Below, one piece after another: positions 8,231 through 53,566 of a DNA stretch of 64,000 bases. The stretch spans positions 192,758,001 through 192,822,000 of the forward strand of contig OX597814.1 of assembly GCA_951406725.2 (NCBI GenBank), written 5' to 3'. The notes below the pieces were generated by a model. The model was not told where the DNA came from. It ran no database searches and was given only the letters and a program-made list of their open reading frames with translations. The stretch comes from Octopus vulgaris (taxonomy: Eukaryota). The first letter of the stretch is position 1. Each line of letters opens with the position of its first letter. The translations under genes and the position numbers were made by a program.

Positions 8231-8403
8231 TAAAGTAGATGTAAATGTCCAACATGAAGTGTTTGTAAGGTTTTACAAGTTCATTTTGTTTCATTTATGG
8301 AAATGAATTTTTCTAAACTGTTGAAGTAATGCAGAATAATTTGCTACATTATTATATTTATTTTATCTTTTTCCCTTCTTTGTATACAGTTCATCAATTA
8401 AAA

Positions 8404-11400
8404 ATGCCAGAAAATTTGAAAATAAAAAAGAAAGCTACCAAAATGGATAAAAGTCTTGTGAAGGAGGAATCTGATGAAATTGTCTCTGATGTACAAGCAT
8501 TTATAAAAGATCTCGGCCTCAATACATCAGTTCCATCTAGTATGAAAAGTAATGTATCTGCACAACCACTGCCTGAGGATTTTAACTGGGGTGACATGAT
8601 GCCAAAGAAAAAAGGAACTGTGCCGCCTTCTGCATCCCAAACTGAAAAAGTGTCAGCTGATACATCAAAGGATGCTGCAGACAGTAAAGGACCAAGTAAA
8701 AAAAAATCAAAGAACAAATATAGACCTCAAACAGATGAGGGTGTTGTGGAATTAAATGAAGTTTCTTCTGAGAAAGTCCAAGATGATGAGATTTCAAGTA
8801 CCACAAAATCGGTTAAAAAAAAGAAAACTGGCGAGAAAAGTGGTAAGAAAGAATTTATAAAATTAGTTGTTGAAGCAGGGACCGTTTGGTATGATTACCT
8901 AGAAAAGAAAAACATGGACAACAAGAGTAGAGACAACACCAATAAGACCAAGCGTACCAGTGCGAAACCTTTGGAGTCGGAAGCTGCAGAAATTTTCCAG
9001 AAGGATGTAGAAAATTATAAGAACCTGAGAGCTAAACGGGAACCTTCTGAAAGCAGTTGGTTTGAAAAGGTTATTGCATCTGGAACTTTGAGCGACAAAG
9101 AAGCAGCTTTCCAGCTTTATGTGACTCAATCACCTGTCCACAATCTTGATTCTTTGGATAATCTTATTGCTATGACACAGAAGAAAAGTCGCCATGTTAA
9201 CATTAAAGCTGCACTTGTTTTGAAAGATCTTTTTATCAAATATATTTTGCCACCGGACAAAACTCTTATGTCATTTCACGAACACAAAACTGATGAATTA
9301 AGTAATTCTAATCGAAAGAAGCAACTCGCCTTGTGGTACTTTGAAAACGAATTGAAGAAACGTTTTGGTGTTTTCGCTGAGTCATTAGTTAGAATGCTAC
9401 AAGACAATGTCGATGCTTGCAAAGAAAAAGTATTGGCTATTATTAGTGAAATTCTTGTTTACACTTCTGAACAAGAGACTATTTTACTGTCATCTCTTGT
9501 AAATAAAATTGGCGACCCTAGTTACAAAGTAGCATCAAAAACAATATACGTCTTGTCTAAATTTTTGAAACTTTGTCCATTGAAAAAATTAAAGGTTATC
9601 GATGAGGTAGAAATGCTTCTGTGCCGTTCTGGCATGAAAGAGAGGGGCCTCTATTACGCCTTTTGCTTTCTCTCGAATCTTCGGTTAAAAGAAGGCGAAA
9701 GCAAAATAGCTGAGAAACTTGTCAATGTTTACTTGAAATTCTTCCAGAAATACATTCAAAAAGGGGAAATGGACAATCGAATGCTTAGTGCTATTCTTTG
9801 TGGTATCAATTTTGCTTTTAAAATTATACATGAAAATCGAGAGTTCATTGCAGAACATACTGAAATACTGTACAAAACTGTACATCTTGTGAACTTTAAT
9901 ACTAGCTTACAGGTAATGATGTTGCTGTATCAAATAATGGAATCAGAAAGTTTATCTGATCGATTTTATATGGTTCTTTATCGTAAAATGTGTGACCCTG
10001 CCTTGAAGAGTTCAAACCGACACATGCACTTCTTAAATCTTGTCTTCAGAGCCATTAAGAATGACCACTCGGAAGCCAGAATAAAAGCTTTTATTAAAAG
10101 ACTTCTTCAGATATGTCTTTATCAGTATCCTCCTTTCATCTGCGGTTCTCTCTGTCTCTTATCTGAAGTCTTTCGTGAGAAGCCTAAATTGCTGAACCTG
10201 GACCAAAACGCTGAAAACTTGATGGATAGCGAGGATGAGGAATGCTATAAAGATGTTGAGTTAGACAGTGATACAGAGTCTCCACAACAAGCAGCATCAG
10301 ATTCAGAGTTGACGAATAAGGATGATAACGAAGAAGATTCCAAGTCATCTGGACAGGTTTCTTCTTGGGTACATCGTAAAAATTTAAAATATGTTCCCAC
10401 CAACATATATTATATGCCACATCACCGTAACCCTCTTTATTGTCAAGCAGAGACAACACTATTTTGGGAATTATACTTACTGTCATTTCATTTTCACCCA
10501 ACTGTCTCTCTTTATGCTTCGACATTACTAAACAATAAGTTTATTGACCATGAAGGTAATCCTTTGCAAGATTACACCTTGATACGTTTCCTTGACAGAT
10601 TTGTATTCAAAAATCCAAAACAAATTAAAGAGAAGTCTTCTGAGCCTAAAAAGAATCGGTATATACCAACAGGTATTAAACTAATTCCTGCAAATGATAG
10701 AAAATATCTTGAAAAAGCGAATAAAATTCCTGTTGAGGAGAAATATCTTTATCAGTATTTCTTGCACAAAAAGGCTGTTACTACCGATAAGGGGATTTTC
10801 AGTGAGGACGAAGAAGTTAGTGATGATGAATTTGACCAAATTCTTGACCAATATGAAAGAAATGCAGATGATAAGGAATTAACAGCATTTGATTTTTATG
10901 GGGAACTTGGAAAACAAAGTGCGAAAAAGAGAAGCTTGGAAGCAGATTTTAGTAGCAGTGAGGGCTCTGATGATGAGTCAGATGATGAAGTTGACTTAGG
11001 GGAAGATTTTATGGCAGAATATAAAGACTTTGGTGGGGAGAGTGATAATGAAAATAGTAACTGTGAGTTTGATGAAGAAAATATCAAATTTTCTGATGAT
11101 AGTGATGGAGAGGATGATTATGAGAAATTTTGTAAACCCAAAATTAAAAAACTGAAAAGGCTTAAAAAGGAATCTGAACAGAATCCTCATGATACGTCTA
11201 AGTTTTTCGTGGCTGCCGAGGAATTTTCTCATATGCTAGAAGATAACATTGTGAGTAACATTGGAAGCCAGGCAGTTGTGAACAAAGACAAATCAAGTGC
11301 CAAACAAATGAAATGGGAAATGGCCAGGGAACAGTGGATGAAAAAATCTGATTGGAAACAGAAACGACAGCCAAAATGGAAAAAGAAAAGTGGTAATAAA

Positions 11401-11469
11401 AGTAAATTTGTTACGAAACCTAAACAGAAAGGAGTAGGGAAAAAACAGAAAAGGAAAAATTGGAAGTAA
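8404..11469 (+). CDS. CEBPZ: CCAAT/enhancer-binding protein zeta (CBF/Mak21/Noc1 family), single coding exon, about 1021 aa
   Basis: Family motifs SGTLSDK..SPVHNL, LSDRFY..LY, RNPLYC..LFWEL..HFHPTVSLYA, GNPLQDYTLIRFLDRFVFKNPK; acidic then Lys-rich C-terminus. The ORF-track start (8329) runs through a polypyrimidine tract and CAG acceptor (8361-8389), so ATG 8404 is preferred. Confidence 0.93.
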   Translation: MPENLKIKKKATKMDKSLVKEESDEIVSDVQAFIKDLGLNTSVPSSMKSNVSAQPLPEDFNWGDMMPKKKGTVPPSASQTEKVSADTSKDAADSKGPSKKKSKNKYRPQTDEGVVELNEVSSEKVQDDEISSTTKSVKKKKTGEKSGKKEFIKLVVEAGTVWYDYLEKKNMDNKSRDNTNKTKRTSAKPLESEAAEIFQKDVENYKNLRAKREPSESSWFEKVIASGTLSDKEAAFQLYVTQSPVHNLDSLDNLIAMTQKKSRHVNIKAALVLKDLFIKYILPPDKTLMSFHEHKTDELSNSNRKKQLALWYFENELKKRFGVFAESLVRMLQDNVDACKEKVLAIISEILVYTSEQETILLSSLVNKIGDPSYKVASKTIYVLSKFLKLCPLKKLKVIDEVEMLLCRSGMKERGLYYAFCFLSNLRLKEGESKIAEKLVNVYLKFFQKYIQKGEMDNRMLSAILCGINFAFKIIHENREFIAEHTEILYKTVHLVNFNTSLQVMMLLYQIMESESLSDRFYMVLYRKMCDPALKSSNRHMHFLNLVFRAIKNDHSEARIKAFIKRLLQICLYQYPPFICGSLCLLSEVFREKPKLLNLDQNAENLMDSEDEECYKDVELDSDTESPQQAASDSELTNKDDNEEDSKSSGQVSSWVHRKNLKYVPTNIYYMPHHRNPLYCQAETTLFWELYLLSFHFHPTVSLYASTLLNNKFIDHEGNPLQDYTLIRFLDRFVFKNPKQIKEKSSEPKKNRYIPTGIKLIPANDRKYLEKANKIPVEEKYLYQYFLHKKAVTTDKGIFSEDEEVSDDEFDQILDQYERNADDKELTAFDFYGELGKQSAKKRSLEADFSSSEGSDDESDDEVDLGEDFMAEYKDFGGESDNENSNCEFDEENIKFSDDSDGEDDYEKFCKPKIKKLKRLKKESEQNPHDTSKFFVAAEEFSHMLEDNIVSNIGSQAVVNKDKSSAKQMKWEMAREQWMKKSDWKQKRQPKWKKKSGNKSKFVTKPKQKGVGKKQKRKNWK

Positions 11470-19750: not shown

Positions 19751-22700
19751 TTATTTGTCAAAATAAAAAAAAGCAAATGGTTGGCGTCCAGGAATAATTC
19801 CAAAAACCATCAAAGAATTTTCTGAAACATCAAAACCAAGAACTTCAAAGACTTCATTATCATAATTCCTGAGGATTAAATATTTAGGATTATCTTCAGA
19901 TATCAGGATTTCATTATCTTCAGATGTTTCCTCTTCAATATGTTGAGGTATTTCATAAATATTGTTATCTTTATCTGTTATATAAACACATTCACCAATT
20001 ATAGTTAAATGAGGTCTTGAAATATCATATTCCAGACCAAAACCTGTTCTTTCTTCTATTCTTATCCTCCTCACCAAAGACTTTTCCCTGAACCATTCCA
20101 CAAAACACAAATGATCCCAATCTCCAGACTCCTTCTTGATCTCCCTCCTCAAAACAACAACATCACCAAAAGATGTGACTCCCACATCATGCACTCCTTC
20201 ATCTGCCTCCAACCTTCCCAATCTCCTCACCTCCCCGTGACACACTTCATCTTTACATTTCCCATCCTTAATATCAACCACATCCACATAATAAGGGTCA
20301 AAGATGTCGGTGTCTTTGCAGTCCTTGTTTTCCCATCTTCTTCGGTATTTCTTGTATCTCTCTTCTTGAGTTATGTCTCTAATATAATGACCACCACACA
20401 CGAGTTGATTGTCGTTGTATTTATAAATCCTCTTGTAGTATTTCTCAGTTCTGATGGTTTTTAAATGACAGAGATCCCTGTTGAACACCCTCATTTCTCT
20501 CCCAAAGGTGACAATGAAACATTCATCTGTCCACCGACATATGTCCAGTGGTGGTTGTTGTTGTTGTTCATGTTGAAGTATGTCCACTGTTGTTGTTGTT
20601 GTTCTCATTAATGTGACACTTTCTCGAAATATCAACACACTCACATTCTCATCTAACTTAATTAGTTTACTACTCTGGTCCCTAATGTCCACATAATCAT
20701 AATTAACATGTTCCTCGAATGCAGGAATGGAAAAAGGGACCATTGCTGTCCTATATGGAAGTCTCCTCACTGATATTTCATCAATTCCTGAATTATTAAT
20801 CTCCGCTATGTAATTACCACATCTCACCTTTAATCTACTTTTACTAATTATTTCACCTGATTTACCTCTTCTTCTTCTTCCTCCATCTCCATCTCCATCT
20901 CCTCCACTGTATTTCAGTTTATTAATTAATTCATTACTGAATATTTCCTTGTTCGTCTCAGATGTAATGGAAGGGAAACGAAGACCAGAATCAAGATTTA
21001 ATAACGACACAGATTCCAGAATGTTCACTTGGTCCCCATCAATCTTTATGCAATGACATTCAATCAATTCAGTATGTACACACCAGTAAATACCCCCAAC
21101 TTTTCTCCATATTACACCATAAGGGATGAGACTTGGCCAAACTTTAGATGTCTGCAAATCTTCTCCATTCAGTTGAAATATTTCTTTTCTTTTAGGAACC
21201 GTGGCCATTATGTGTGATTCTTGTGTAAAACACACACCACCAACTAAACTTGCAACATTTCTGTGACATAGCAACTCTCCGTCTTCATCAAATATTTTAA
21301 CATTTCCATTATTGGCTTTTTCACACGCAACTGTCTTTCCTTTATCAGAGATATCAAAATCTTTTACTTGAACAGGACATTCGTCTGTTTGTAAACGAGC
21401 AACTGGGAAGCTTTCTCGATTCACCATAAACAACCCTTCAACATACAATCCTTTCTTTTTTCCCCTCCTAGAGCTTCCAACAAATCTTGGTCCTTTACAG
21501 TTTATACTGAAGAAATATACTTCACCTTTATAAATTCTTTCATTTAAAAATATTCTCTTGTATTCCCCATTCTGGGTCAAACACAAAATGTTTTGATAAT
21601 CAGGACAATCTAAATATTTCTCCCACTGACCATGAATGTACAAAAAACTGTCATCAATTGTCATCCGGTCATCACGAAGTAAGTGCTGCATGTAGTGTCT
21701 AACTGAATGTAAATATTGACCATCACTATTTAAGAAAGCGATGTATCTTTCATTTAAGACAATGATGACATCTTCAGCAGTAACATTAATATCCGTGATG
21801 GGAGCATAATTATTTCCATCTTCTCCTCTCCCTAATGATGGTTCAGGTATGTGTATTTGTTTTGTTTCCTTCACATTTGAATGTATTTCATCAATATCAA
21901 CAAAATACAAAAGACTTCTATTTTCGCTTTTACTACAAACTAGTTGATTGTTTGATAAAGAAGCCACACATCTATATTCATCTCTTGTCTGGTAAATTAC
22001 CAACAACAATGGAAATTCCACTTTTAATGTCAACAGTTGGGATCTATTACCAAAATAATCCCAATTTGTAATAATCAGTGTGTTTGAGTGCCATCGACAT
22101 ATTTTAATAAATCTATAAGCATTCCATTTGATTGAATCCACAAGTTGACCATCCAATGTGAATATCTTAATGTTTCCATTCTTCTCGTCCCATCCTGCAA
22201 TCAGGTTATTTTCTGTAATAACCAAATATTTAATCCATACTGGTAATTTGTCTTCCAAATTTTGAGGGAGAGGAATATGTCTGGCTTTATCAGAAACTGT
22301 CAGGTCTTGTAGATATAAAGTAGAAGACAACATTTCACTGACAGAAATGTTTCTGGAAAATACATCTACCAGATCGATATGATAATTAAGTTGATTATTT
22401 ATAAATAGATCATTAACCAACAAATTATGATCATTTATAGCAAACATACGGCTGTTGTCTATCAGATAAACAAATGTTTGGTCAATAGATCCACTGTAGA
22501 GATTTAGGGGATGTTTCACTTGGGACATTAAAACACTGGGGACCATCTTAATACTATAAAGATGATGACTTACATCACCACCATCAAAAATGAAGAAAGC
22601 TTCTGTTTCGTACTCTGAGTCACCGGATACCATCTCAATACTACTAATACTACCATCACTACTACTAATACTACTATCACTGCCACCACTTAGTATTGTA

Positions 22701-25351
22701 AGTATATCACCAGCACTTAGTATTGTACTTAGACCACCACCATCTATTGTAGTGTTGTACTGAAAAGCTTTTCCCCTTGTAACAATTAACAGCTTTTGTG
22801 TTTCCTTGTCTATTGATAAGGATTTCACAAAAAAAGGGATTTTAATTCTATGAATTCTTTCAACTTGATTATAATCTTTCCTAATGGCTAAAATATCTAA
22901 ATATGATGGTTTATCACAATAACAAACAATTTCACCTTCACCCATCTTACACACTCGTATATAAGGCTGCCTTAATGATACACTTCTCACTGTCTTTGAT
23001 AGGTTTCCGATGACCCTTAATTGTTTCAGTAGGGGTAATGTGACACCTATTTGATTAGAATCCCATCGACATATATCTGTAGCTGTAGATGGCAGAGATA
23101 ATCTAGACACAATGTTTCCTTCATTAGAAATGTATAACAAGCAATCATGGTTGATGTCAAACACCACCAACTGTCCATTGGCCAGATTACATATTTCACC
23201 AATGACAAGTTTTTTGTCATTCTCCTTTTCTTTGAGTCGTATATTTAGATTTCTGATATAAGGATTTTTTGTGCGTAAATAACAGCCAGACGACTGGCCT
23301 TGATACTTGTAAAGAAGAACCCTGTTGAGTTGAGTGTCCGGCACATAAACAGTTCCTTGGAAAACAGCAATGTCAGGGTGAACAGGGAAAGGTAGTTTCC
23401 ATTGCCATTTAATTTCTCCATATATCTCATAACATATCAAAATAGAGTGTCTCTTGAAGAGGACATAAAAATAAACATTATCAGAGTAGATGTGATGAGG
23501 GTAGCCATAGAATGGAAGGTATTTTTGAAAAAGTTCTTCACCACATGTGGAATAAAATACCATTTTATTTTCGCTTCCATTTACGACTACAAAATTAATT
23601 GGAGTTGCAGCAATGGTGACATTATAATGTCCCATAGAAATTCTTTCTATAATGTCAACTTTATCTTCGTTGATCAAAAGGATATGGACCTCATTTTTGT
23701 TTTCATTGGTGGTCACAGCTAAAAACTTATTTGATACAATATGACATATTTTCATGTAATCAGTTTGGACCTTTATTAAAGGGCCTTTTCTTAGTTCAGG
23801 ACAGGTGATATACTGAAATCCTTTAATTTCACAATAAAATACCAGGAATCTGTTTGCGTTTATTCTACAAGAGAAAGAAGGAAGCTCAAGGAAAACTAAA
23901 TTATTTTGGTTAATTATTTCCCCATTATCAGTGAATAATTTAGCTTCCTTATTTATGTAAATTATTAATATAGAAGATGTAGACATAGGAAGAATATTTG
24001 TAATGTTGTAGCAATCCTCAATATAAATATAGTCTTTTAAACTGGGGGTATGTAGCTGGTGGTTGTATGATAGTTTGGGCCAAAAGTCTTTATTTATTTG
24101 AATGGCATGTGGTTTGCCACAATAATCTGTTACCAAAATGGTATCTTTACCAACAGAAATAGAGCAGCATTTCCTGCCAATGTCCCTCATTGTTACACCA
24201 CCTTTAGCCGAAATTTTATAAATAATTTGTCCCTGGAGGACATAGAAATAGTTTTGGTACTGAGAGATTTTACTTGGGAGGTGCAGAGAATGGGTCTCTA
24301 CTTCCCATAACTGTTGGCCATCCAGTTTATAACAGATTATTCTGTTAATACTGGAAAATGTGATTAAAAGTATATTCTGGACCCCTACAGTAATATCTGT
24401 TGGCGTTTCTTTGGTCATGAATTCATATCGAATTCTATTATCTTCCCAATCAATTTGGTAAACAGTCTTACCAAACATTTCTACACCTATAAGTGTAGAA
24501 TGTTCCAAGTAAGCAACCAAATGTAATCCCAACTGTATCCTTTTAATCTTGAAAGTTGTGGGGCTGATAATAAGAATCATTTTTTGGAAGGGGAGGGTTG
24601 CTAGAACCATGTCTTCACCGATTCTGGTGAAACTGGTGACAGAAGATGGACAATGAGCATCATTTCTGTCACCGTTTCTTGTCAGACAACATATTGTCAT
24701 ACAATGGCGGGAATATGTTACTACTCCCTCCTGTATGACAATAATATTGGATATTATTGTGCTTTTGTCAAATTCTTCCCCAGATTCCTTGATCTTTGCC
24801 TCTCTGGTCAGAACTGGCGAAAGAGGCCGAAATTTTGTGGTTATTTTTGGTGGCTCAATGGTTTTGTGTTTGTCTTGTAGAATATTTCTCTGTAAATAGT
24901 GTTCCAGGAACAATTCTAGCTTTCCAAAAATAATAAATTCTTGATTGTAATCGCTTTTTTTAATGTCTTTCATCAAAATTTCTATTCTCTGTGTAAATTC
25001 TTTTAGAAAAGTATTTTCATTCATTCCTATATTTTTAAAAAAAGTACGTATTTCTTCCCGAGAATTTATCAACAAATTCATTTTGTCTTCATATGCATTG
25101 AATCTTGTATAAAATATATGTTTGTCAAAACTATTTCGTCTTCGCATTATTTCCCTCTTTTCAGGGTCTCCTTTATGTCTTTTTTGTTTTTTTGTTGGCT
25201 GAGATGAAGCTTGTTTCTCTGACATTTCTCTCCTTGAACTGTCATCTCTCTCATATTTACACCTTTGATGGTCAACTCCTTCTCCATACCATTTTGTTTT
25301 TAAGTTACTTAAAGCCCTTTTCTGAGGGGTAGGTTTTGTTTGGTCTTCCAT
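19751..25351 (-). CDS. Large single-exon protein (1866 aa): basic/helical N-terminus plus about six tandem NHL/TolB-like beta-propeller modules
   Basis: 5.6-kb stop-free ORF; recurring blade motifs (DICRWDSNQIGVTLP, KICRWHSNTLIIT, DICRWTDECFIVT, GGVCFTQESHIMATVP, SFTRIGEDMVLATLP; KIFTLDGQLV, KIFDEDGELL, KLFTDNGEII); splice acceptor TTTCATTACAG 7 nt upstream of the ATG. The fold assignment is inferred. Confidence 0.8.
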   Translation of the reverse strand: MEDQTKPTPQKRALSNLKTKWYGEGVDHQRCKYERDDSSRREMSEKQASSQPTKKQKRHKGDPEKREIMRRRNSFDKHIFYTRFNAYEDKMNLLINSREEIRTFFKNIGMNENTFLKEFTQRIEILMKDIKKSDYNQEFIIFGKLELFLEHYLQRNILQDKHKTIEPPKITTKFRPLSPVLTREAKIKESGEEFDKSTIISNIIVIQEGVVTYSRHCMTICCLTRNGDRNDAHCPSSVTSFTRIGEDMVLATLPFQKMILIISPTTFKIKRIQLGLHLVAYLEHSTLIGVEMFGKTVYQIDWEDNRIRYEFMTKETPTDITVGVQNILLITFSSINRIICYKLDGQQLWEVETHSLHLPSKISQYQNYFYVLQGQIIYKISAKGGVTMRDIGRKCCSISVGKDTILVTDYCGKPHAIQINKDFWPKLSYNHQLHTPSLKDYIYIEDCYNITNILPMSTSSILIIYINKEAKLFTDNGEIINQNNLVFLELPSFSCRINANRFLVFYCEIKGFQYITCPELRKGPLIKVQTDYMKICHIVSNKFLAVTTNENKNEVHILLINEDKVDIIERISMGHYNVTIAATPINFVVVNGSENKMVFYSTCGEELFQKYLPFYGYPHHIYSDNVYFYVLFKRHSILICYEIYGEIKWQWKLPFPVHPDIAVFQGTVYVPDTQLNRVLLYKYQGQSSGCYLRTKNPYIRNLNIRLKEKENDKKLVIGEICNLANGQLVVFDINHDCLLYISNEGNIVSRLSLPSTATDICRWDSNQIGVTLPLLKQLRVIGNLSKTVRSVSLRQPYIRVCKMGEGEIVCYCDKPSYLDILAIRKDYNQVERIHRIKIPFFVKSLSIDKETQKLLIVTRGKAFQYNTTIDGGGLSTILSAGDILTILSGGSDSSISSSDGSISSIEMVSGDSEYETEAFFIFDGGDVSHHLYSIKMVPSVLMSQVKHPLNLYSGSIDQTFVYLIDNSRMFAINDHNLLVNDLFINNQLNYHIDLVDVFSRNISVSEMLSSTLYLQDLTVSDKARHIPLPQNLEDKLPVWIKYLVITENNLIAGWDEKNGNIKIFTLDGQLVDSIKWNAYRFIKICRWHSNTLIITNWDYFGNRSQLLTLKVEFPLLLVIYQTRDEYRCVASLSNNQLVCSKSENRSLLYFVDIDEIHSNVKETKQIHIPEPSLGRGEDGNNYAPITDINVTAEDVIIVLNERYIAFLNSDGQYLHSVRHYMQHLLRDDRMTIDDSFLYIHGQWEKYLDCPDYQNILCLTQNGEYKRIFLNERIYKGEVYFFSINCKGPRFVGSSRRGKKKGLYVEGLFMVNRESFPVARLQTDECPVQVKDFDISDKGKTVACEKANNGNVKIFDEDGELLCHRNVASLVGGVCFTQESHIMATVPKRKEIFQLNGEDLQTSKVWPSLIPYGVIWRKVGGIYWCVHTELIECHCIKIDGDQVNILESVSLLNLDSGLRFPSITSETNKEIFSNELINKLKYSGGDGDGDGGRRRRGKSGEIISKSRLKVRCGNYIAEINNSGIDEISVRRLPYRTAMVPFSIPAFEEHVNYDYVDIRDQSSKLIKLDENVSVLIFRESVTLMRTTTTTVDILQHEQQQQPPLDICRWTDECFIVTFGREMRVFNRDLCHLKTIRTEKYYKRIYKYNDNQLVCGGHYIRDITQEERYKKYRRRWENKDCKDTDIFDPYYVDVVDIKDGKCKDEVCHGEVRRLGRLEADEGVHDVGVTSFGDVVVLRREIKKESGDWDHLCFVEWFREKSLVRRIRIEERTGFGLEYDISRPHLTIIGECVYITDKDNNIYEIPQHIEEETSEDNEILISEDNPKYLILRNYDNEVFEVLGFDVSENSLMVFGIIPGRQPFAFFYFDK

Positions 25352-35975: not shown

Positions 35976-36641
35976 CAAACTTGGAGGTTTACCCGTGGAA
36001 AGAAAAGCCTACGGAAAAGACCACGGTAACCTCAGTCAATGAAGTCACATGTTACATTTTTTTACAAATAAGCAACTCTCTGTATTAATTTTTACGGTTC
36101 ATAGGATCATAGTCAAGGTGGCTTCGTCATTCATACGTGCCATAGATAGACAGATTGATATATATATGTATATAGATGGACACAGATAAATAGATATATG
36201 TATATATATCTATACAGACTGATGTTTTCTTATATATACATATAGATGCAAGTGTGGCTGTGTGATAAGAAGCCTGCGTCCCAACTATATGGTCCCAGGT
36301 TCAGTCCCACTGAGTAGCACTTTGGGCAAGTGTCTTATACTGTAGCCTTAGTCCAACCAGATCCCTGTGAGTGGATATGGTAGAAGGAAACTGAAAGAAG
36401 CCTGTCGTATATATGTATATATTCGTGTGTCTGTGGTTGTCCCCACACCATCACTTGACAACCGATGTTGGGTTTTTTTACATCCCTGTAACTTTATGGT
36501 TCGGCAACAGTGACCGAGAGAATGAGTACGAGGCTTACATAAATAAAACCTGGGGTTGATATATCTGACTGAAGGTGGTGCTCCATCTACCTTCTATCTA
36601 CCTTCCTATCTATCTATCTATCTACCTACCTACCTACCTAC

Positions 36642-39215: not shown

Positions 39216-39812
39216 ATGGCCGAAGGTACTTCAGTTAACGGTGTTGCATCAAGCATGTCTAATAAGCGGCAAGGTTACCTTGAATGGGATGATTACTTCA
39301 TGTCAGTGGCTTTCCTCTCTGCTCAACGTAGCAAAGACCCAAGAACTCAGGTAGGAGCTTGTATTGTTAACGAAGATAGACGTATTGTTGGCATCGGATA
39401 TAACGGTATGCCTCGTGGTTGTAGTGACGATGATTTTCCTTGGTGCAATGAAGGTGTCACTGAGCTAGAAAACAAAAATTTCTACGTATGTCATGCTGAG
39501 CTTAATGCTATTCTCAATAAGAATTCTGCAGACGTTCGCAATTGCACTATATATGTTGGTTTGTTTCCTTGCAATGAATGTGCTAAAGTCATTATACAGT
39601 CTGGAATTAAAGAAGTCATATACTATTCGGATAAATATAAGGACCAAATTACCTCTAAAGCTTCTCGAATTATGTTGGATCGTGCTGAAATTAAATATCG
39701 CCAGTATCGACCTACAAACGGACAAATTGTTATAGATTTTACTTCATTAGAAGAAAAGAAAGACCGGATTATAAGTTCAGTTTTGTCCCCCATTTCTGAA
39801 CTTTCACTTTAG
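39216..39812 (+). CDS. DCTD: dCMP deaminase copy 1 (198 aa)
   Basis: [48 protein letters not shown] zinc-deaminase motifs; intronless. Confidence 0.97.
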
Positions 39813-45486: not shown

Positions 45487-46056
45487 ATGGCAGAAGGTAC
45501 TTCTGTTAACGGTGTTGCATCAAGCATGTCTAATAAGCGGCAAGGTTACCTTGAATGGGATGATTACTTCATGTCAGTGGCTTTCCTCTCTGCTCAACGT
45601 AGCAAAGACCCAAGAACTCAGGTAGGAGCTTGTATTGTTAACGAAGATCGACGTATTGTTGGCGTCGGATATAACGGTATGCCTCGTGATTGTAGTGACG
45701 ATGATTTTCCTTGGTGCAATGAAGGTGTCACTGAGCTAGAAAACAAAAATCTCTACGTATGTCATGCTGAGCTTAATGCTATTCTCAATAAGAATTCTGC
45801 AGACGTTCGCAATTGCACTATATATGTTGGTTTGTTTCCTTGCAATGAATGTGCTAAAGTCATTATACAGTCTGGAATTAAAGAAGTCATATACTATTCG
45901 GATAAATATAAGGACAAAATTACCTCTAAAGCTTCTCGAATTATGTTGGATCATGCTAAAATAAAACATCGCCAGTATCGACCTACAAACGGACAAATTG
46001 TTATAGATTTTACTTCATTAGATGAAATGAAAGACCGGATTATAAGTTCAGTTTAG
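45487..46056 (+). CDS. DCTD: dCMP deaminase copy 3 (189 aa, L190*)
   Basis: Intact HAE/PCxxC; TTG->TAG removes the last 9 aa; 8 private missense changes. Confidence 0.9.
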
Positions 46057-46949
46057 TCCCTTCTTTCTTAACTTTCACTTTAGTCAGATGCGAACATAAA
46101 CACTTGGAATTCATTATATTGCCAACATTGCCTTTTCATAATGATATCCTGTTATATTTTCTAGCTAAAATTAATGGAACTGGTGAAGATTTTCTAATTT
46201 TTATATGAAATATTAACTGCTGTATTTTTAACGAAAATGTTTATTCCATTTTGTTTTCGTTTGTGTGTACATAATATTTTAACTGCCTCTTTCTAAGAAA
46301 ATGAAACTATCCACATTTGTTCCAATACGCAGTAGCGTAGCTGGGGGTATGTGTGCATTTTGGGCCGCACTTTTAAATTCTTAGATTATTCACATTGTAG
46401 TCTTTGTTTAACTTTCAAGTTTATTTGAATTTTATTCTTTATTTTAAAAATTATTCATTCAAATCTTGATAAGCATGTTATTGTTTGAATTTTTCAACCA
46501 TAGTTTGAAATTCCACTAATTCTCAGAATTTCCTTAAGAACATTTTATTCATAATCTATGTTGTACACACCCCCAAACTGTCAACGTCAGATGACCCAGA
46601 TAATGCAGAGGAAACAAGCAATGGAATTATTTCTATTCATATCCTAAAAGATACAGAATATCTCTGTCAGTGGTTCACAACTGGGATTTATATGGACCCT
46701 GAGGGGGACCATGTAAGGTTTTGTTGCTAAAATTTTCATCTACATTAAATTGGTTCTATTTGTACAATACACAAAATATTTTAGTTTTGTTTTAATACAA
46801 TTCTTCATAATATTATAAAAGTATAATAGGATTTCTCTAAATGACGAACGGCTATGGGTGATTCACCTGTGTAAAATGGGAATCAAAGGGGGCCATAGGT
46901 GAAAAGTGGTTGAGAACCACTTATCTATGTAATTAAAGTCTTAAAGTTT

Positions 46950-47235: not shown

Positions 47236-48205
47236 TAAAGTTTTAACTGTGAGAGCAAATGAAATAATATCAGGTATCATATAAAAGTGATATATAACAA
47301 ATGTCTTATCCTATGAAATATAAAAATTAAAAAAATATTGTTTGGAATATGCAATCTTTATAATGTAGTCAGTTGTTCTGTTGATTTATATTTTTCTATC
47401 TTGAAATAAATATGTTATCAATTCTTAATGTTTTTCTAACTTTACTAATGAACTATCCTCAAAAATTTCATATTCTTACTTCTTCATAACATTTCATTGA
47501 AGATATTTTTCTGTGAAATTCACCTGTTGCAGCCAGAAGTCATATTGTATTTTCCAGCATATATATTTCTTTACTGCCCACAAAGGGCTAAACATAGAGG
47601 GGACAAACAAGGACAGACAAAGGGATTAAGTCGATTACACCGACCGCAGTGCGTAAACTGGTAGTTTATTTATCGACCCCGAAAGGATGAAAGGCAAAAT
47701 CGACCTTGGCGTAATTTGAACTCAGAACGTAACGACAGTCAAAATACAGCTAAGCATTTTGCCCAGTGCGCTAACGTTTCTGCCAGCTCGCTGCCTTTTC
47801 AATTTTTCCAGCCTATATGTTAACACAATATATTGTATAAACATGTAGTGTAAAACATTCAGACATCATCATTATCTTCCCATATCCTGTTATACATTCT
47901 TTCGCCATTGCCACAAGAATGATGAAAATAGCTCTTCCTTCCCATTTGAAGGAAGGAGGCGTGACAATATTGACGATAGACTCGGCTGATAAACCGACTC
48001 GTCCCACACGCGACAGCAGTCGTTCGACATAGATAGATAGATAGATAGAGATAGAAAGATAGATAGACAGTGGGTGGCACAAAATGTAAGGGACGTAAAT
48101 ACCGCTATAAGCAAGGGAGATAACTAGAAACATATTTGCGTTTCTCATAAGTCGAGGAAGTAATCTGTAAATATTTCCCGCAAAATCTTACGTATTTGAT
48201 TCACT

Positions 48206-48802
48206 ATGGCAGAAGGTACTTCTGTTAAGGGTGTTGCATCAAGCAGGTCTAATAAGCGGCAAGGTTACCTTGAATGGGATGATTACTTCATGTCAGTGGC
48301 TTTCCTCTCTGCTCAACGTAGCAAAGACCCAAGAACTCAGGTAGGAGCTTGTATTGTTAACGAAGATAGACGTATTGTTGGCATCGGATATAACGGTATG
48401 CCACGTGGTTGTAGTGACGATGATTTTCCTTGGTGCAATGAAGGTGTCACTGAGCTAGAAAACAAAAATCTCTACGTATGTCATGCTGGGCTTAATGCTA
48501 TTCTCAATAAGAATTCTGCAGACGTTCGCAATTGCACTTTGTATGCTGCTTTGTTTCCTTGCAATGAATGTGCTAAAGTCATTATACAGTCTGGAATTAA
48601 AGAAGTCATATACTATTCGGATAAATATAAGGACCAAATTACCTCTAAAGCTTCTCGAATTATGTTGGATCGTGCTGAAATAAAATATCGCCAGTATCAA
48701 CCTACAAACGGACAAATTGTTATAGATTTTACTTCATTAGAAGAAAAGAAAGACCGGATTATAAGTTCAGTTTTGTCCCCCATTTCTGAACTTTCACTTT
48801 AG
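48206..48802 (+). CDS. DCTD: dCMP deaminase copy 4 (198 aa), predicted catalytically inactive (E95G)
   Basis: Full ORF; CAT-GCT-GGG at 48482-48490 gives HAG instead of HAE; Zn ligands H93, C119 and C122 retained. Confidence 0.88.
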
Positions 48803-50905
48803 TCAGATGCGAACATAAACACTTGGAATTCATTATATTGCCAACATTGCCTTTTCATAATGATATCCTGTTATATTTTCTAGCTAAAATTAATGTAACT
48901 TGAGAAGATTTTCTAATTTTTATATGAAATATTAACTGCTGTATTTTTAACGAAAATGTTTATTCCATTTTGTTTTCGTTTGTGTGTACATAATATTTTA
49001 ACTGCCTCTTTCTAAGAAAATGAAACTATCCACATTTGCTCCAATACGCAGTAGCGTAGCTGGGGTGGGGTATGTGTGCATTTTGGGCCGCACTTTTAAA
49101 TTCTTAGATTGTTCACATTGTAGTCTTTGTTTAACTTTCAAGTTTATTTGAATTTTATTCTTTATTTTAAAAACTATTCATTCAAATCTTGATAAGCATG
49201 TTATTGTCTGAATTTTTCAACCATAGTTTGAAATTCCACTAATTCTCGGAATTTCCTTATGAATATTTTATTCATAATCTATGTTGTACACACCCTCAAA
49301 CTGTCAACGTCAGATGACCCAAATAAAGCAGACGAAACAAGCAATGGAATTATTTCTATTCATATCCTAAAAGATACAGAATATCTCTGTCAGTGGGTCA
49401 CAACTGGGATTTATATGGACCCTGAGGGGGTCCATGTAAGGTTTTGTTGCTAAAATTTTCATCTACATTAAATTGGTTCTATTTTTACAATACACAAAAT
49501 ATTTTAGTCTTGTTTTAATAGAATTCTTCATAATATTATAAAAGTATAATAGGATTTCTTTAAACGACGAACGGCTATGGGTGATTCACCTGTGTAAATT
49601 GGGAATCAAAGGGGGCCATAGGTGAAAAGTGGTTGAGAACCACTTATCTATGTAATTAAAGTCTTAAAGTTTGGATCTTTTCAGTTTGACCGGCAAATTT
49701 TTAAAATAATTTCTTTGTAAGTAAATACTTTAAAACTTTGTATACTGGTAGAATGTGTTACATAAAACATCTTCTCATGGTTTTCTTGAGAAAATTCTGT
49801 AGTTTGTAACAACAAATAGCTTACAAACTACAGAATTTTCTCAAGAAAGCCAAGAGAAAAAGATGTTTTATGTAACACACTACCAATATATGAAGTTTGA
49901 AAGTGTTCAGTTACAAAGAAATTATTTTAAAAATCTACTGGTCAAAGTTTTAACTGTGAGAGCAAATGAAATAATATCAGGTATCATATAAAAGTGATAT
50001 ATAACAAATGTCTAATACTATGAAATATAAAAATTAAAAAGTATTGTTTGGAATATGCAATCTTTATAATGTAGTCAGTTGTTCTGTTGATTTATATTTT
50101 TCTATCTTGAAATAAATATGTTATCAATTCTTAATGTTTTTCTAACTTTACTGATGAACTATCCTCAAAAATTTCATATTCTTACTTCTTCATAACATTT
50201 CATTGAAGATATTTTTCTGTGAAATTCACCTGTTGCAGCCAGAAGTCATATTGTATTTTCCAGCATATATATTTCTTTACTGCCCACAAGGGGCTAAACA
50301 TAGAGGGAACAAACAAGGACACACAAAGGGGTTAAGTCGATTACATCGACCCCAGTGCGTAACTGGTACTTAATTTATCGACCCCGAAAGGATGAAAGGC
50401 AAAGTCGACCGCGGCGGAATTTGAACTCAGAACGTAACGGCAGGCGAAATACCTATTTCTTTACTACCTACAAGGGGCTAAACACAGAGAGGACAAACAA
50501 GGACAGACAAACTGATTAAGTCGATTACATCGACCCCAGTGCGTGACTGGTACTTATTTAATCAACCCCCGAAAGGATGAAAAGCACAGTCGACCTTGGC
50601 GGAATTTGAACTCAGAATGTAACGACAGTCAAAATACAGCTAAGCATTTTGCCCAGTGCGCTAACGTTTCTGCCAGCTCGCTGCCTTTTCAATTTTTCCA
50701 GCATATATGTCAACACAATATATTGTATAAACATGTAGTGTAAAACATTCAGACATCATCATTATCTTCCCATATCCTGTTGTATTTCACATAAAAATTT
50801 TGGTCCTCCAAAGTCGCCTTTGTGTATAAATTAGCCTAACTATTTTGGTTTTAAAAATTTGATTTTTATGCTGGAAAATGCAGGTGAGTTGAAATTGAAA
50901 ATACA

Positions 50906-52027
50906 TTGACTTTGCTAAGGCTTTCAACTCTGTGCCACACAAAAGGCTTATGGTGAAACTCTCTGCAATGGGTGTGGGGGATGACCTTTTTAACTGGTTG
51001 AAATCCTTCATCCTCAGCCGAAAGGAGGTAGTCACAGTTCTAGGACAGCACTCTACACCATATGAGATGTCATCGGGTGTACCACAGGGATCTGTCCTTG
51101 GTCCCCTCCTGTTTGTGGCATACATTAATGACATAGATGCCAATTTAAAGAATGCCACAGTATTGAAATATACAGACGACATCAAGCTGTACCTTGAAAT
51201 CAAGAGGACTGATCCTGATGTCTACAACTCTTTCCTGTAATCAGACCTAGACACAATGCAGCAATGGATCACAGACTGGCAACTGAAACTGGCTGTGGAC
51301 AAGTGTACCACCATGCATTTTGGGAGAAAAAACCCTGCGTCCACATACTCCCTCCACAACACTGATATCAAGAAATCCTCTTGTGAGCGTGACCTAGGCA
51401 TCACTGTCAGCAGTGATTTGCGTTGGACAAAGCATATCTCTAAAATTGTCAAGAAGGCCGAGGGTGTCTTGGCATCACTCAGCAAGACTTTTGTTAGCCG
51501 CTCTCCAGCCATCTATTTAAAACTGTATACAGCTATGGTACGACCACACTTGGAATTCGCATCATCAGTTTGGAATCCCTATCTTGCTCAGAACATTGAC
51601 CTGGAATCTGTCCAGAGACGTGCAACCAAACGCATACCCTCCATCAGACACCTACCATATTCTGAGCGCATTGTTTCCCTGGGCATGGATTCACTGAAGC
51701 TCCGGCGTCTAGCGACGGACTTGGTAAACACCCACAAGGTTATCAACCACCTCACCAACAACAACACTGAACACCTTTTTGATCTCCATGTGTCTAACAC
51801 ACGTGGACATGCCTACAAAGTCAGAAAACAGCACAGCTTCCATGACTTTCGGAAACATTTTTTCACGCTCAGGGTTGCTGAAGCGTGGAATAAACTGCCT
51901 GCATCAGTTGTTGACTGCCATGACACTGCATCCTTTAAGGCCCTCATGCTTCCCGAAATCCGTCGAAACTACACCTGATTATATATACACTTTAGATGAG
52001 TTGTAGTGCACCTGAGCACTGTACACA

Positions 52028-52060: not shown

Positions 52061-53008
52061 TTGTTTTCATGACACTGACAAAGCTTGCAAAGGCTAAAGG
52101 TATTGTATAATTTCTTCTCTGATTAGGTCATCATTATCATCATCATTTAATGTCCCTTTACCATGCTAGCATGGGTTGGACGGTTCAACCGGGGTCTGGT
52201 AAGCCATGGAGGCTGCACCAGGCTCCAGTCTAATTTGGCAGTGTTTCTACAGCTGGATGCCCTTTGTAATGCCAACCACTACGTGAGTGTAGTGGGTGTT
52301 TTTTACGTGCCACCAGCACAGGAGCCAGAGCAGGCTGGCAAACGGCTACGATCAGTTGGTGCTTTTATGTGTCACCGATATGGACGCCAGTCAGGCGGCA
52401 CTGGCATCTGCCAAGTTCGGATGGTGCTTTTTATGTGTCACTGGCATGGGTTACCACATTTGTTTGCAAATAGGTAACCCTCTGTTTTAAATTTTTTCGG
52501 GTTCATAGAATTATGCTCAAGGTGTTTTCGTCATTCATACGTGCCATCCTTACTACATTCACCCATCTCTTTTGAAACATTCGCTAGACAAAACTTGTTT
52601 CTCTACTCACTTTCCTTTTCAAGTGATACTTGAAGAAGTTGATGAGAGATTGACCAGAGAGGAAAGTGTTTGTTCACTAGATACATTCTTTCGCCATAGC
52701 CACAAGAATGATGAAAATAGCTCTTCCTTCCCGTTTAAAGGAAGGAGGCGTGACAATATTGACGATATACTCGGCTGATAAACCGACTTGTCCCACACGC
52801 GACAGCAGTCGTTCGACATAGATAGATAGATAGTGGGTGGACTAAATGTAAGGGACATAAATGGCGCTATATAAGCAAGGGAGATAACTAGAAGCATATT
52901 GCGTTTCTAATAAGCTTGAGGACGTAAGCGGTAAATATTTCCCGCAAAATCTTACGTATTTGAATCACTACGGCAGAAGGTACTTCAGTTAACGGTGTTG
53001 CATCAAGC

Positions 53009-53566
53009 ATGTCTAAAAAGCGGCAAGGTTACCTTGAATGGGATGATTACTTCATGTCAGTGGCTTTCCTCTCTGCTCAACGTAGCAAAGACCCAAGAAC
53101 TCAGGTAGGAGCTTGTATTGTTAACGAAGATAGACGTATTGTTGGCATCGGATATAACGGTATGCCTCGTGGTTGTAGTGACGATGATTTTCCTTGGTGC
53201 AATGAAGGTGTCACTGAGCTAGAAAACAAAAATCTCTACGTATGTCATGCTGAGCTTAATGCTATTCTCAATAAGAATTCTGCAGACGTTCGCAATTGCA
53301 CTATATATGTTGGTTTGTTTCCTTGCAATGAATGTGCTAAAGTCATTATACAGTCTGGAATTAAAGAAGTCATATACTATTCGGATAAATATAAGGACCA
53401 AATTACCTCTAAAGCTTCTCGAATTATGTTGGATCGTGCTGAAATAAAATATCGCCAGTATCGACCTACAAACGGACAAATTGTTATAGATTTTACTTCA
53501 TTAGTAGAAAAGAAAGACCCGATTATAAGTTCAGTTTTGTCCCCCATTTCTGAACTTTCACTTTAG
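53009..53566 (+). CDS. DCTD: dCMP deaminase copy 5 (185 aa from the second Met; first ATG mutated to ACG at 52970-52972)
   Basis: Intact catalytic motifs; Met14 lies near the N-terminus typical of animal DCTDs. Confidence 0.9.

What the first reader, a model, noticed from the sequence alone, without database searches (positions are those of the whole stretch)
48482..48490. Copy 4 is a full-length pseudo-deaminase (HAE->HAG)
Seen: a single A>G at 48489 gives E95G; the ORF, Zn ligands and E2F site are intact. Established: the HxE glutamate is the essential proton shuttle of cytidine-deaminase-fold enzymes, and Glu-less partners such as ADAT3/Tad3 act as structural subunits. Inference: a dead subunit could join hetero-hexamers as a dominant-negative or allosteric tuner, or act as a nucleotide sensor. 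Because the change is A>G, it is worth testing whether ADAR recodes the same codon in the other copies.
Basis: partly seen in the sequence, partly recalled or inferred. Interest (0 to 1): 0.75.

Follow-up and report, generated by a model that had tools for sequence, protein, structure and literature searches.

The report
Young catalytically dead octopus DCTD duplicate
One of five side-by-side copies of an octopus dCMP deaminase gene has lost its catalytic glutamate in the DNA, a change shared with a sister species, and is most likely a redundant young duplicate drifting after duplication rather than a purpose-built regulator.

Summary
Codon 95 of copy 4 (48488-48490) is GGG (Gly) where the other four tandem, intronless DCTD copies have GAG; frame, Zn ligands, allosteric GYNG motif and E2F-type site are intact. 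It is not an error: the O. sinensis orthologue (XP_029642106.2) and a contig of run X1 carry HAG in phase with the other copy-4 markers. Loss of catalysis is well supported by CDADC1's natural dead HAG domain. A selected regulatory role is not shown. All 8 private coding changes are non-synonymous (fits neutral drift, P=0.15; rejects omega 0.2, P=0.001), the TATA box lost 2 nt, and the O. sinensis orthologue has 5 more hits at positions at least 93% conserved, three of them in predicted interface helices. Most likely a redundant duplicate at least ~2.5 My old under relaxed selection (0.55). A CDADC1/ADAT3-like structural or pocket-remodelled subunit stays open (about 0.3): changes cluster at the active-site floor, and a limpet duplicate independently lost the same Glu and Val. 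ADAR recoding is unlikely (5' G context). Transcription and co-assembly are untested.

The parts
48206..48802 (+). Copy 4 DCTD-like CDS, intronless, 198 aa, HAG in place of HAE
   Evidence: PF00383, E 2.3e-25; human DCTD 2W4L, E 2.8e-67
48482..48490 (+). H93-A94-G95: Zn ligand His kept, catalytic Glu lost (A>G at 48489)
48539..48550 (+). Cluster of 4 private substitutions, codons 112-115 (IYVG to LYAA; MYAA in X1 and O. sinensis). V114 aligns with CDADC1 V421, the active-site floor
48560..48571 (+). C119-N-E-C122 zinc ligands, intact
48386..48397 (+). GYNG allosteric (dCTP/dTTP) motif, intact
   Evidence: motif as defined in PMC12088426
48106..48113 (+). Weakened TATA box: 2-nt loss relative to TATATAAG in the other four copies
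48174..48181 (+). E2F-consensus match TTTCCCGC (motif match only; the E2F consensus is recalled)
47893..49100 (+). Copy-4 duplication core shared with all five copies. Its 5' part (47894-48025) is a very high-copy element followed by an (AGAT)n tract
   Evidence: (summed depth 3.7e5-7.9e5 in DNA run X7)
39216..39812 (+). Copy 1 DCTD, HAE, 198 aa
42352..42948 (+). Copy 2 DCTD, HAE, 198 aa
45487..46056 (+). Copy 3 DCTD, HAE, stop at codon 190 (189 aa), G68D at a 97%-conserved site, E2F match lost
52970..53566 (+). Copy 5 DCTD, HAE, first ATG changed to ACG; ORF from Met14 (53009)

Best explanation
Copy 4 is one of five tandem, intronless dCMP deaminase genes and carries a genomic HAE-to-HAG change shared with Octopus sinensis; it is predicted to be catalytically dead and is most likely a redundant young duplicate drifting under relaxed selection. 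Shown: the array, the change, its presence in a second species, and an excess of amino-acid changes at conserved sites in this lineage. Inferred mechanism: the array expanded in the vulgaris/sinensis lineage, the HAE copies supply dCMP-to-dUMP activity, and so loss of the proton-shuttle Glu in one copy cost nothing. If the protein is made, it would still fold, bind Zn and join mixed hexamers as a passenger, because each protomer has its own catalytic site; the number of live sites would be set by the HAE copies. It would then be expected to decay further, as the O. sinensis orthologue appears to have done.
For: All 8 private coding changes are non-synonymous: P=0.15 under neutrality, 0.006 at omega 0.3, 0.001 at omega 0.2. 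In residues 17-180, the HAG lineage (copy 4 plus P0001) has 7 of 13 changes at sites at least 90% conserved in 115 non-octopod homologues, matching the neutral share of 43% (P=0.58). HAE copies have 3 of 50 (Fisher P=0.0003), and the young HAE copies alone 2 of 18 (P=0.017). The O. sinensis orthologue groups with copy 4 (99/93) and has 5 of 8 further core differences at conserved sites: a 2-residue deletion with A32, L34P, P75R, Y90C, K124E. The deletion and L34P fall in predicted helix 24-37 and K124E in helix 120-129, the helix types that form the interfaces in CDADC1. An open frame is expected in 12-49% of neutral histories of this length (assumed indel rates). The TATA box is weakened. Other copies also show wear: copy 3 has an early stop, G68D and no E2F match, and copy 5 lost Met1. 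Glu-dead subunits of the same-fold yeast Fcy1 assemble into active heteromers (PMC10888846 passages).
Against: The decay is lopsided: 1 amino-acid change on the window's side against 7-8 on the O. sinensis side (two-sided P=0.07 or 0.04). I could not see the O. sinensis DNA, and its other copies also carry unusual changes (L89H, C110Y, K142E), so assembly error may inflate the signal. Without P0001, copy 4 has only E95G and V114A at conserved sites. The X1 contig has copy 4 with no gap and one coding difference. The copy-4 5' flank is nearly unchanged in organism B (X4: 0 of 205 and 0 of 125 letters differ; X11: 0 of 125, and 1 of 218 plus 4 gap letters). Four of 8 private changes lie within 11 nt (simulated P=0.0009; 3 of 7 within 9 nt, P=0.015; both post hoc). 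A Patella vulgata duplicate independently lost the same Glu and the same Val.
Confidence: 0.55

Rival explanations
1. Copy 4 is a selected structural or allosteric pseudo-subunit: it co-assembles with HAE subunits, stabilises or retunes the hexamer through its intact allosteric site and interfaces, and may be on the path of constructive neutral evolution that gave CDADC1 its dead HAG domain.
For: Open frame, Zn ligands, GYNG motif and interface helices are unchanged in the window and in X1. [quoted passage not shown] CDADC1's N-terminal domain is a natural HAG-dead DCTD domain with an architectural role. In Fcy1, 148 of 207 complementing pairs involved a likely catalytically dead partner, and E64V is more stable than wild type. 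Only 1 coding change has occurred on the window's side since the split.
Against: No synonymous excess. The O. sinensis orthologue has lesions in predicted interface helices. Copies 1 and 2 show no complementary lesion that would need rescue. ADAT3 and CDADC1-NTD have a second inactivation, a fourth protein Zn ligand, for which copy 4 shows no new candidate residue in sequence. O. bimaculoides and Argonauta each gave one HAE protein in my searches.
Confidence: 0.2
2. Copy 4 is a neofunctionalised nucleotide binder or sensor: E95G plus V114A and G115A enlarge the base pocket, so the protein would hold dCMP or a modified nucleotide without turning it over.
For: The private changes cluster at the active-site floor (V114 = CDADC1 V421). 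The limpet duplicate has E-to-A plus V-to-S at the same two positions. CDADC1 E400A still binds dCTP in its active site.
Against: With 7 and 4 other changes, a second shared site arises by chance with P=0.16. Sites next to a lost catalytic residue are also the first freed by relaxation (inference). There are no binding data, and the AlphaFold model is mediocre (pLDDT 66.5) and cannot resolve the pocket.
Confidence: 0.1
3. Copy 4 is a dominant-negative subunit that lowers total DCTD activity by poisoning mixed hexamers, for example to offset the dosage of the array.
For: It is 96% identical to active copies, so co-assembly is expected. Dominant-negative alleles of homomers are a recognised class (PMC13181401 passages).
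Against: Each DCTD protomer carries its own catalytic site, so a folded dead subunit dilutes live sites rather than removing them (inference). Glu-dead Fcy1 subunits support active heteromers.
Confidence: 0.07
4. The G is tied to ADAR: either an edit was fixed in copy 4, or ADAR recodes the same codon in the other copies to switch them off.
For: The change is A>G, and coleoids recode heavily (PMC9068888 passages).
Against: The target A has a 5' G in all four HAE copies, which ADAR2 disfavours (PMC11334849 passages; human ADAR2 data). The 201-nt region around the site in copy 2 folds no better than shuffles (z=+0.57; long-range pairing not tested). Only 2 of 8 private changes are A>G. Copy 4 shares flanks beyond the transcript with its neighbours, so it is a segmental copy rather than a retrocopy of an edited mRNA. 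In the only laid contig with G48489 the G is in phase with copy-4 markers.
Confidence: 0.04
5. G48489 is a sequencing error or a rare private allele.
For: The collapsed coding contigs of X4, X7 and X11 show only A at 48489, but contigs drop minority variants.
Against: HAG with K8, R14, A114, A115 and Q165 is present in O. sinensis XP_029642106.2. The X1 contig keeps 7 of 8 private coding sites including G48489.
Confidence: 0.02

Closest known systems
Eukaryotic dCMP deaminase DCTD (human, PDB 2W4L)
   Same: Best match by sequence (E 2.8e-67) and by fold (E 4.8e-20, about 61% identity); PF00383; Zn ligands and GYNG allosteric motif kept.
   Different: Catalytic Glu replaced by Gly, and the active-site-floor Val by Ala; one of five tandem intronless copies.
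CDADC1 N-terminal domain (vertebrates; PMC12088426)
   Same: A natural DCTD-like domain with exactly HAG at the HAE position and PCxxC kept; non-catalytic.
   Different: CDADC1-NTD is fused to an active domain, conserved across vertebrates, has a Glu blocking the Zn, and lacks the allosteric site. Copy 4 is a separate ORF, 96% identical to active paralogues, a few million years old, with no demonstrated role.
ADAT3/Tad3 (PMC8216470)
   Same: Glu-less paralogue of an oligomeric CDA-fold deaminase.
   Different: ADAT3 is an obligate partner with Glu-to-Val, a capped Zn pocket and an extra tRNA-binding domain. None of these is seen in copy 4, and its partners are homo-oligomeric enzymes.
Laboratory Fcy1 E64V heteromers (PMC10888846)
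   Same: Same fold; a catalytic-Glu mutant after duplication that still assembles with its paralogue.
   Different: Fcy1 pairs need complementary lesions in both copies; octopus copies 1 and 2 look undamaged.
Patella vulgata DCTD-like duplicate (XP_055958957-9)
   Same: Young duplicate (95% identical to an HAE gene on a contig of the same length), catalytic Glu lost (HAA), V114-equivalent changed to Ser.
   Different: Independent origin; it also has GYNG to GYNA; two genes found rather than five; no functional data seen.

Membership tests
Active dCMP deaminase (DCTD) | PF00383 domain and closest relative among solved structures is DCTD | tested here: met
Active dCMP deaminase (DCTD) | Zn ligands His and PCxxC | tested here: met
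   H93, C119, C122
Active dCMP deaminase (DCTD) | Catalytic Glu of HxE | tested here: not met
   G95; Glu in 210 of 213 motif instances
Active dCMP deaminase (DCTD) | Allosteric G(Y/W)N(A/G) motif | tested here: met
   GYNG 61-64
Active dCMP deaminase (DCTD) | dCMP deamination and hexamer formation | not testable with these tools
   needs purified protein
Functional pseudoenzyme (ADAT3 or CDADC1-NTD type) | Catalytic residue lost with fold kept | tested here: met
   (model pLDDT 66.5; prediction is insensitive to point changes)
Functional pseudoenzyme (ADAT3 or CDADC1-NTD type) | Purifying selection on the dead copy | tested here: inconclusive
   Pooled lineage looks neutral (7 of 13 changes at conserved sites; 8 of 8 non-synonymous), but the window side has only 1 change since the split and the O. 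sinensis DNA was not seen
Functional pseudoenzyme (ADAT3 or CDADC1-NTD type) | Expression as RNA and protein | tested here: inconclusive
   Copy-4 contig in run X1, whose RNA status is a guess; protein not testable
Functional pseudoenzyme (ADAT3 or CDADC1-NTD type) | Assembly with, and effect on, an active partner | not tested
   No complex prediction was run: a 96%-identical homomer would pass by likeness to 2W4L
Functional pseudoenzyme (ADAT3 or CDADC1-NTD type) | Zn site capped by a fourth protein ligand | tested here: inconclusive
   No new acidic or Cys/His residue among the private changes; coordinates of the model were not available
ADAR recoding site | A in the genome, G in RNA of the same gene | tested here: not met
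   For copy 4 the G is genomic in two assemblies. For the other copies it could not be tested, as no raw RNA reads were offered
ADAR recoding site | Favoured neighbours (5' U/A, 3' G) and local dsRNA | tested here: not met
   5' G, 3' G; local fold z=+0.57
Classical disabled pseudogene | Stop, frameshift or truncation | tested here: not met
   Open 198-aa frame in the window; no gap in the X1 contig

The most novel reading that the evidence does not exclude
Molluscs repeatedly give birth to Glu-less DCTD paralogues by the same two-step pocket change (octopus E95G plus V114A; limpet E-to-A plus V-to-S). Octopus copy 4 would then be a selected, free-standing equivalent of CDADC1's dead HAG domain, caught a few million years after birth, tuning dCTP/dTTP control of mixed hexamers or binding a nucleotide it no longer deaminates.
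Probability: 0.25. Interest if true: 0.65.

Novelty: new member of a known kind. Interest (0 to 1): 0.35.

Why it matters
If copy 4 is only drifting, it is an ordinary birth-and-death duplicate with one practical use: a genomic paralogue with G at this site would mimic an A-to-I recoding of a catalytic residue in cephalopod editing screens that collapse the copies. If it is selected, it is a rare natural snapshot of a pseudoenzyme being born in a homo-hexamer, 96% identical to its active partners. That would allow a direct test of constructive neutral evolution and of how CDADC1's dead domain arose, with a limpet replicate. I found no paper on this array: searches for octopus with 'dCMP deaminase', 'deoxycytidylate deaminase' and 'DCTD' listed none about it, in a library that lacks most subscription papers.

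Tried and rejected
No whole genome is held for this window, so further DCTD copies elsewhere in this genome were not searched. No RNA holder listed: none of the 24 runs is on record as RNA. Word shares of 0.57-0.76 are weak, because 64% of the 31-mers of the stretch also occur in the other copies; I laid 4 of the 20 holders. In X1 the only DCTD record laid is the copy-4 contig. It begins at 48134, 28 nt after the TATAA, and X1 has no cover of the high-copy element upstream that is very deep in X7. This looks like a transcript, but contigs cannot show an RNA start and holes prove nothing, and I laid no separate silent stretch, so it is not counted as evidence. X1 has depth 4.2 and could be a second haplotype of the assembled animal. 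X4, X7 and X11 show only A at 48489 in collapsed contigs, which is uninformative. The supplement of PMC8382921 (1 file held, 64,827 characters) has no DCTD entry; full editing-site tables were not seen and could bear on the ADAR question. The Fisher test used hand counts and was redone from the alignment; only one search is used. The AlphaFold model and fold search confirm the fold only. An Rfam scan of 36000-58000 gave 0 matches. Earlier scan findings: none by place, words or sequence. A retrocopy of an edited mRNA was rejected because the flanks are shared beyond the transcript.

Full report
Setting. The window is octopus DNA: the closest named proteins are dCMP deaminase-like proteins of Octopus sinensis (92-95%) and O. 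bimaculoides (86%). The window's own proteins are in NCBI on a 225.7-Mb contig, distinct from the 213.4-Mb O. sinensis contig. I infer a sister species, probably O. vulgaris; no tool named it. Five intronless DCTD copies lie in tandem at 39216, 42352, 45487, 48206 and 52970, 96-98% identical to copy 4 in DNA, each within a shared core of about 1.2 kb. O. sinensis has at least 6 annotated copies; my searches returned one each for O. bimaculoides and Argonauta, from lists limited to the best 120 cluster representatives.

The observation. 48482-48490 encodes HAG; the other four copies have HAE, differing by A>G at 48489. Frame, H93, C119, C122, GYNG and the TTTCCCGC match at 48174 are intact. Glu is present in 126 of 128 proteins and in 210 of 213 motif instances in the final 205 proteins.

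Is it real? Yes. O. sinensis XP_029642106.2 (P0001) has K8, R14, G95, A114, A115 and Q165 and groups with copy 4 at 99/93. Run X1 has one 1574-nt contig, depth 4.2, laid from 48134 past 49150 with no gap and 5 other letters; it keeps 7 of the 8 private coding sites including G48489, and has M112 as P0001 does. Organism B runs X4 and X11 hold the copy-4 5' flank almost unchanged, and in X4 this includes the K8 and R14 codons; their coding contigs and that of X7 are collapsed and show only A. So 1 of 4 laid runs shows the G. A paper gives 2.5 Mya for the O. vulgaris/O. sinensis split (PMC10700109, passages), a minimum age if the species inference holds. Transcription is not shown: no holder is on record as RNA.

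Is it dead? Very likely. The HxE Glu is described as the essential proton shuttle of DCTDs (PMC12088426 passages and sections 7 and 17; PMC12386326 passages). CDADC1 E400A is inactive, and CDADC1's N-terminal domain carries a natural HAG and is non-catalytic. ADAT3 has Val in place of Glu plus a capped Zn site (PMC8216470 passages). [quoted passage not shown] Activity itself was not measured.

Is it kept by selection? The evidence leans against but is thin. All 8 private changes are non-synonymous on the path through M112: P=0.15 if neutral, 0.001 at omega 0.2. Two of them (M112, Q165) also occur in HAE copies of O. sinensis and may be older. Over residues 17-180 the HAG lineage has 7 of 13 changes at sites at least 90% conserved in 115 non-octopod homologues, against a neutral share of 43% and against 3 of 50 for HAE copies (Fisher P=0.0003; young copies 2 of 18, P=0.017); the two-residue deletion was counted once. 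E95G itself is among the 7, and 5 of the 7 come from P0001 alone, three of them in predicted helices 24-37 and 120-129. An open frame is not surprising (12-49% under assumed indel rates). On the other side, the window lineage has 1 change since the split against 7-8 in P0001 (P=0.07 or 0.04); 7 or more differences between species would be ordinary at 1.5% neutral divergence (P=0.5) but not at 0.5% (P=0.008). The near identity of the copy-4 flank in organism B points to low divergence or to constraint on that flank. P0001 could therefore hold assembly errors; I could not see its DNA.

The clustering and the limpet. Four of 8 private changes lie within 11 nt (simulated P=0.0009; 0.015 without the variable site; post hoc). 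A region search turned up a Patella vulgata protein with HAA and V-to-S at the V114 position. It belongs to a second gene, 95% identical to an intact DCTD, with 8 core differences. A second shared site arises by chance with P=0.16, so this is a lead and not proof. Relaxation next to a lost catalytic residue would give the same picture.

How it would act. DCTD hexamers have one catalytic and one allosteric site per protomer, the latter at the interface. A folded dead subunit should therefore dilute live sites, not remove them (inference). In yeast Fcy1, Glu64 mutants assemble in cells and take part in active heteromers, and 148 of 207 complementing pairs involved a likely catalytically dead partner (PMC10888846 passages). 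This argues against dominant-negative action, although such alleles exist in homomers (PMC13181401 passages), and it shows how a dead copy could become needed once its partners are damaged. Copies 1 and 2 show no such damage.

ADAR. The G is genomic in copy 4. In the HAE copies the A has a 5' G, which clashes in ADAR2 (PMC11334849 passages); squid sites also show neighbour preferences, though the passage I saw gave no letters (PMC4384741 passages). The local fold is unremarkable (z=+0.57). Coleoid editing is extensive and includes housekeeping genes (PMC9068888 passages), so low-level editing is not excluded, and no editing table was seen. The more likely link runs the other way: copy 4 would give false A-to-G calls when copies are collapsed.

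Verdict. A real, full-length, predicted-dead DCTD paralogue shared by two octopus species. It resembles the CDADC1 N-terminal domain in its lesion, fails membership as an active DCTD, and is unproven as a functional pseudoenzyme. Drifting redundant duplicate 0.55; structural or allosteric subunit 0.2; remodelled binder 0.1; dominant-negative 0.07; ADAR link 0.04; error 0.02. New member of a known kind; interest 0.35, and 0.65 if the recurrent-pseudoenzyme reading (probability 0.25) holds.

Noticed in passing
P0140, P0206, P0209 (Patella vulgata XP_055958957-9): A second limpet DCTD gene with HAA, GYNA and V-to-S at the V114 position, 95% identical to an intact gene.
   Followed up: partly
window 48711-48770, runs X7 and X11: A joint going back 60 nt, with diverged pieces nearby, fits a sixth DCTD type with a duplicated C-terminal stretch like O. 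sinensis P0007; it is not in this window.
   Followed up: no
window 48647, run X11: A loose end whose letters match the downstream flank found at 46743, 49466 and 55125, suggesting a 3'-deleted DCTD copy in organism B.
   Followed up: partly
window 47894-48067 and the same place in each copy; also 35985-36143: Each DCTD promoter follows a very high-copy element ending in (AGAT)n, possibly a SINE tail (label recalled); summed depth 3.7e5-7.9e5 in X7.
   Followed up: no
window 19751-25351 (-): A single 1866-aa ORF with no Pfam hit; Atlas look-alikes (0.92-0.93) are mollusc clusters in which 26-47% of members carry NHL repeats.
   Followed up: partly
window 8329-11469 (+): Intronless 1046-aa CBF/Mak21-family gene (CEBPZ-like; the name and its usual introns are recalled).
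   Followed up: no
window 51256-51978 (+): A 240-aa ORF between copies 4 and 5 that looks like the end of a LINE reverse transcriptase (recalled resemblance; no Pfam hit).
   Followed up: no
window 45487-46056 and 52970-53566: Copy 3 has a stop at codon 190, G68D and no E2F match; copy 5 has ACG for Met1. Copy 4's M14R removes the second in-frame ATG that the other copies have.
   Followed up: yes
Mya arenaria has several DCTD-like proteins on two contigs, and Batillaria and Littorina two each, so DCTD duplication recurs in molluscs.
   Followed up: no
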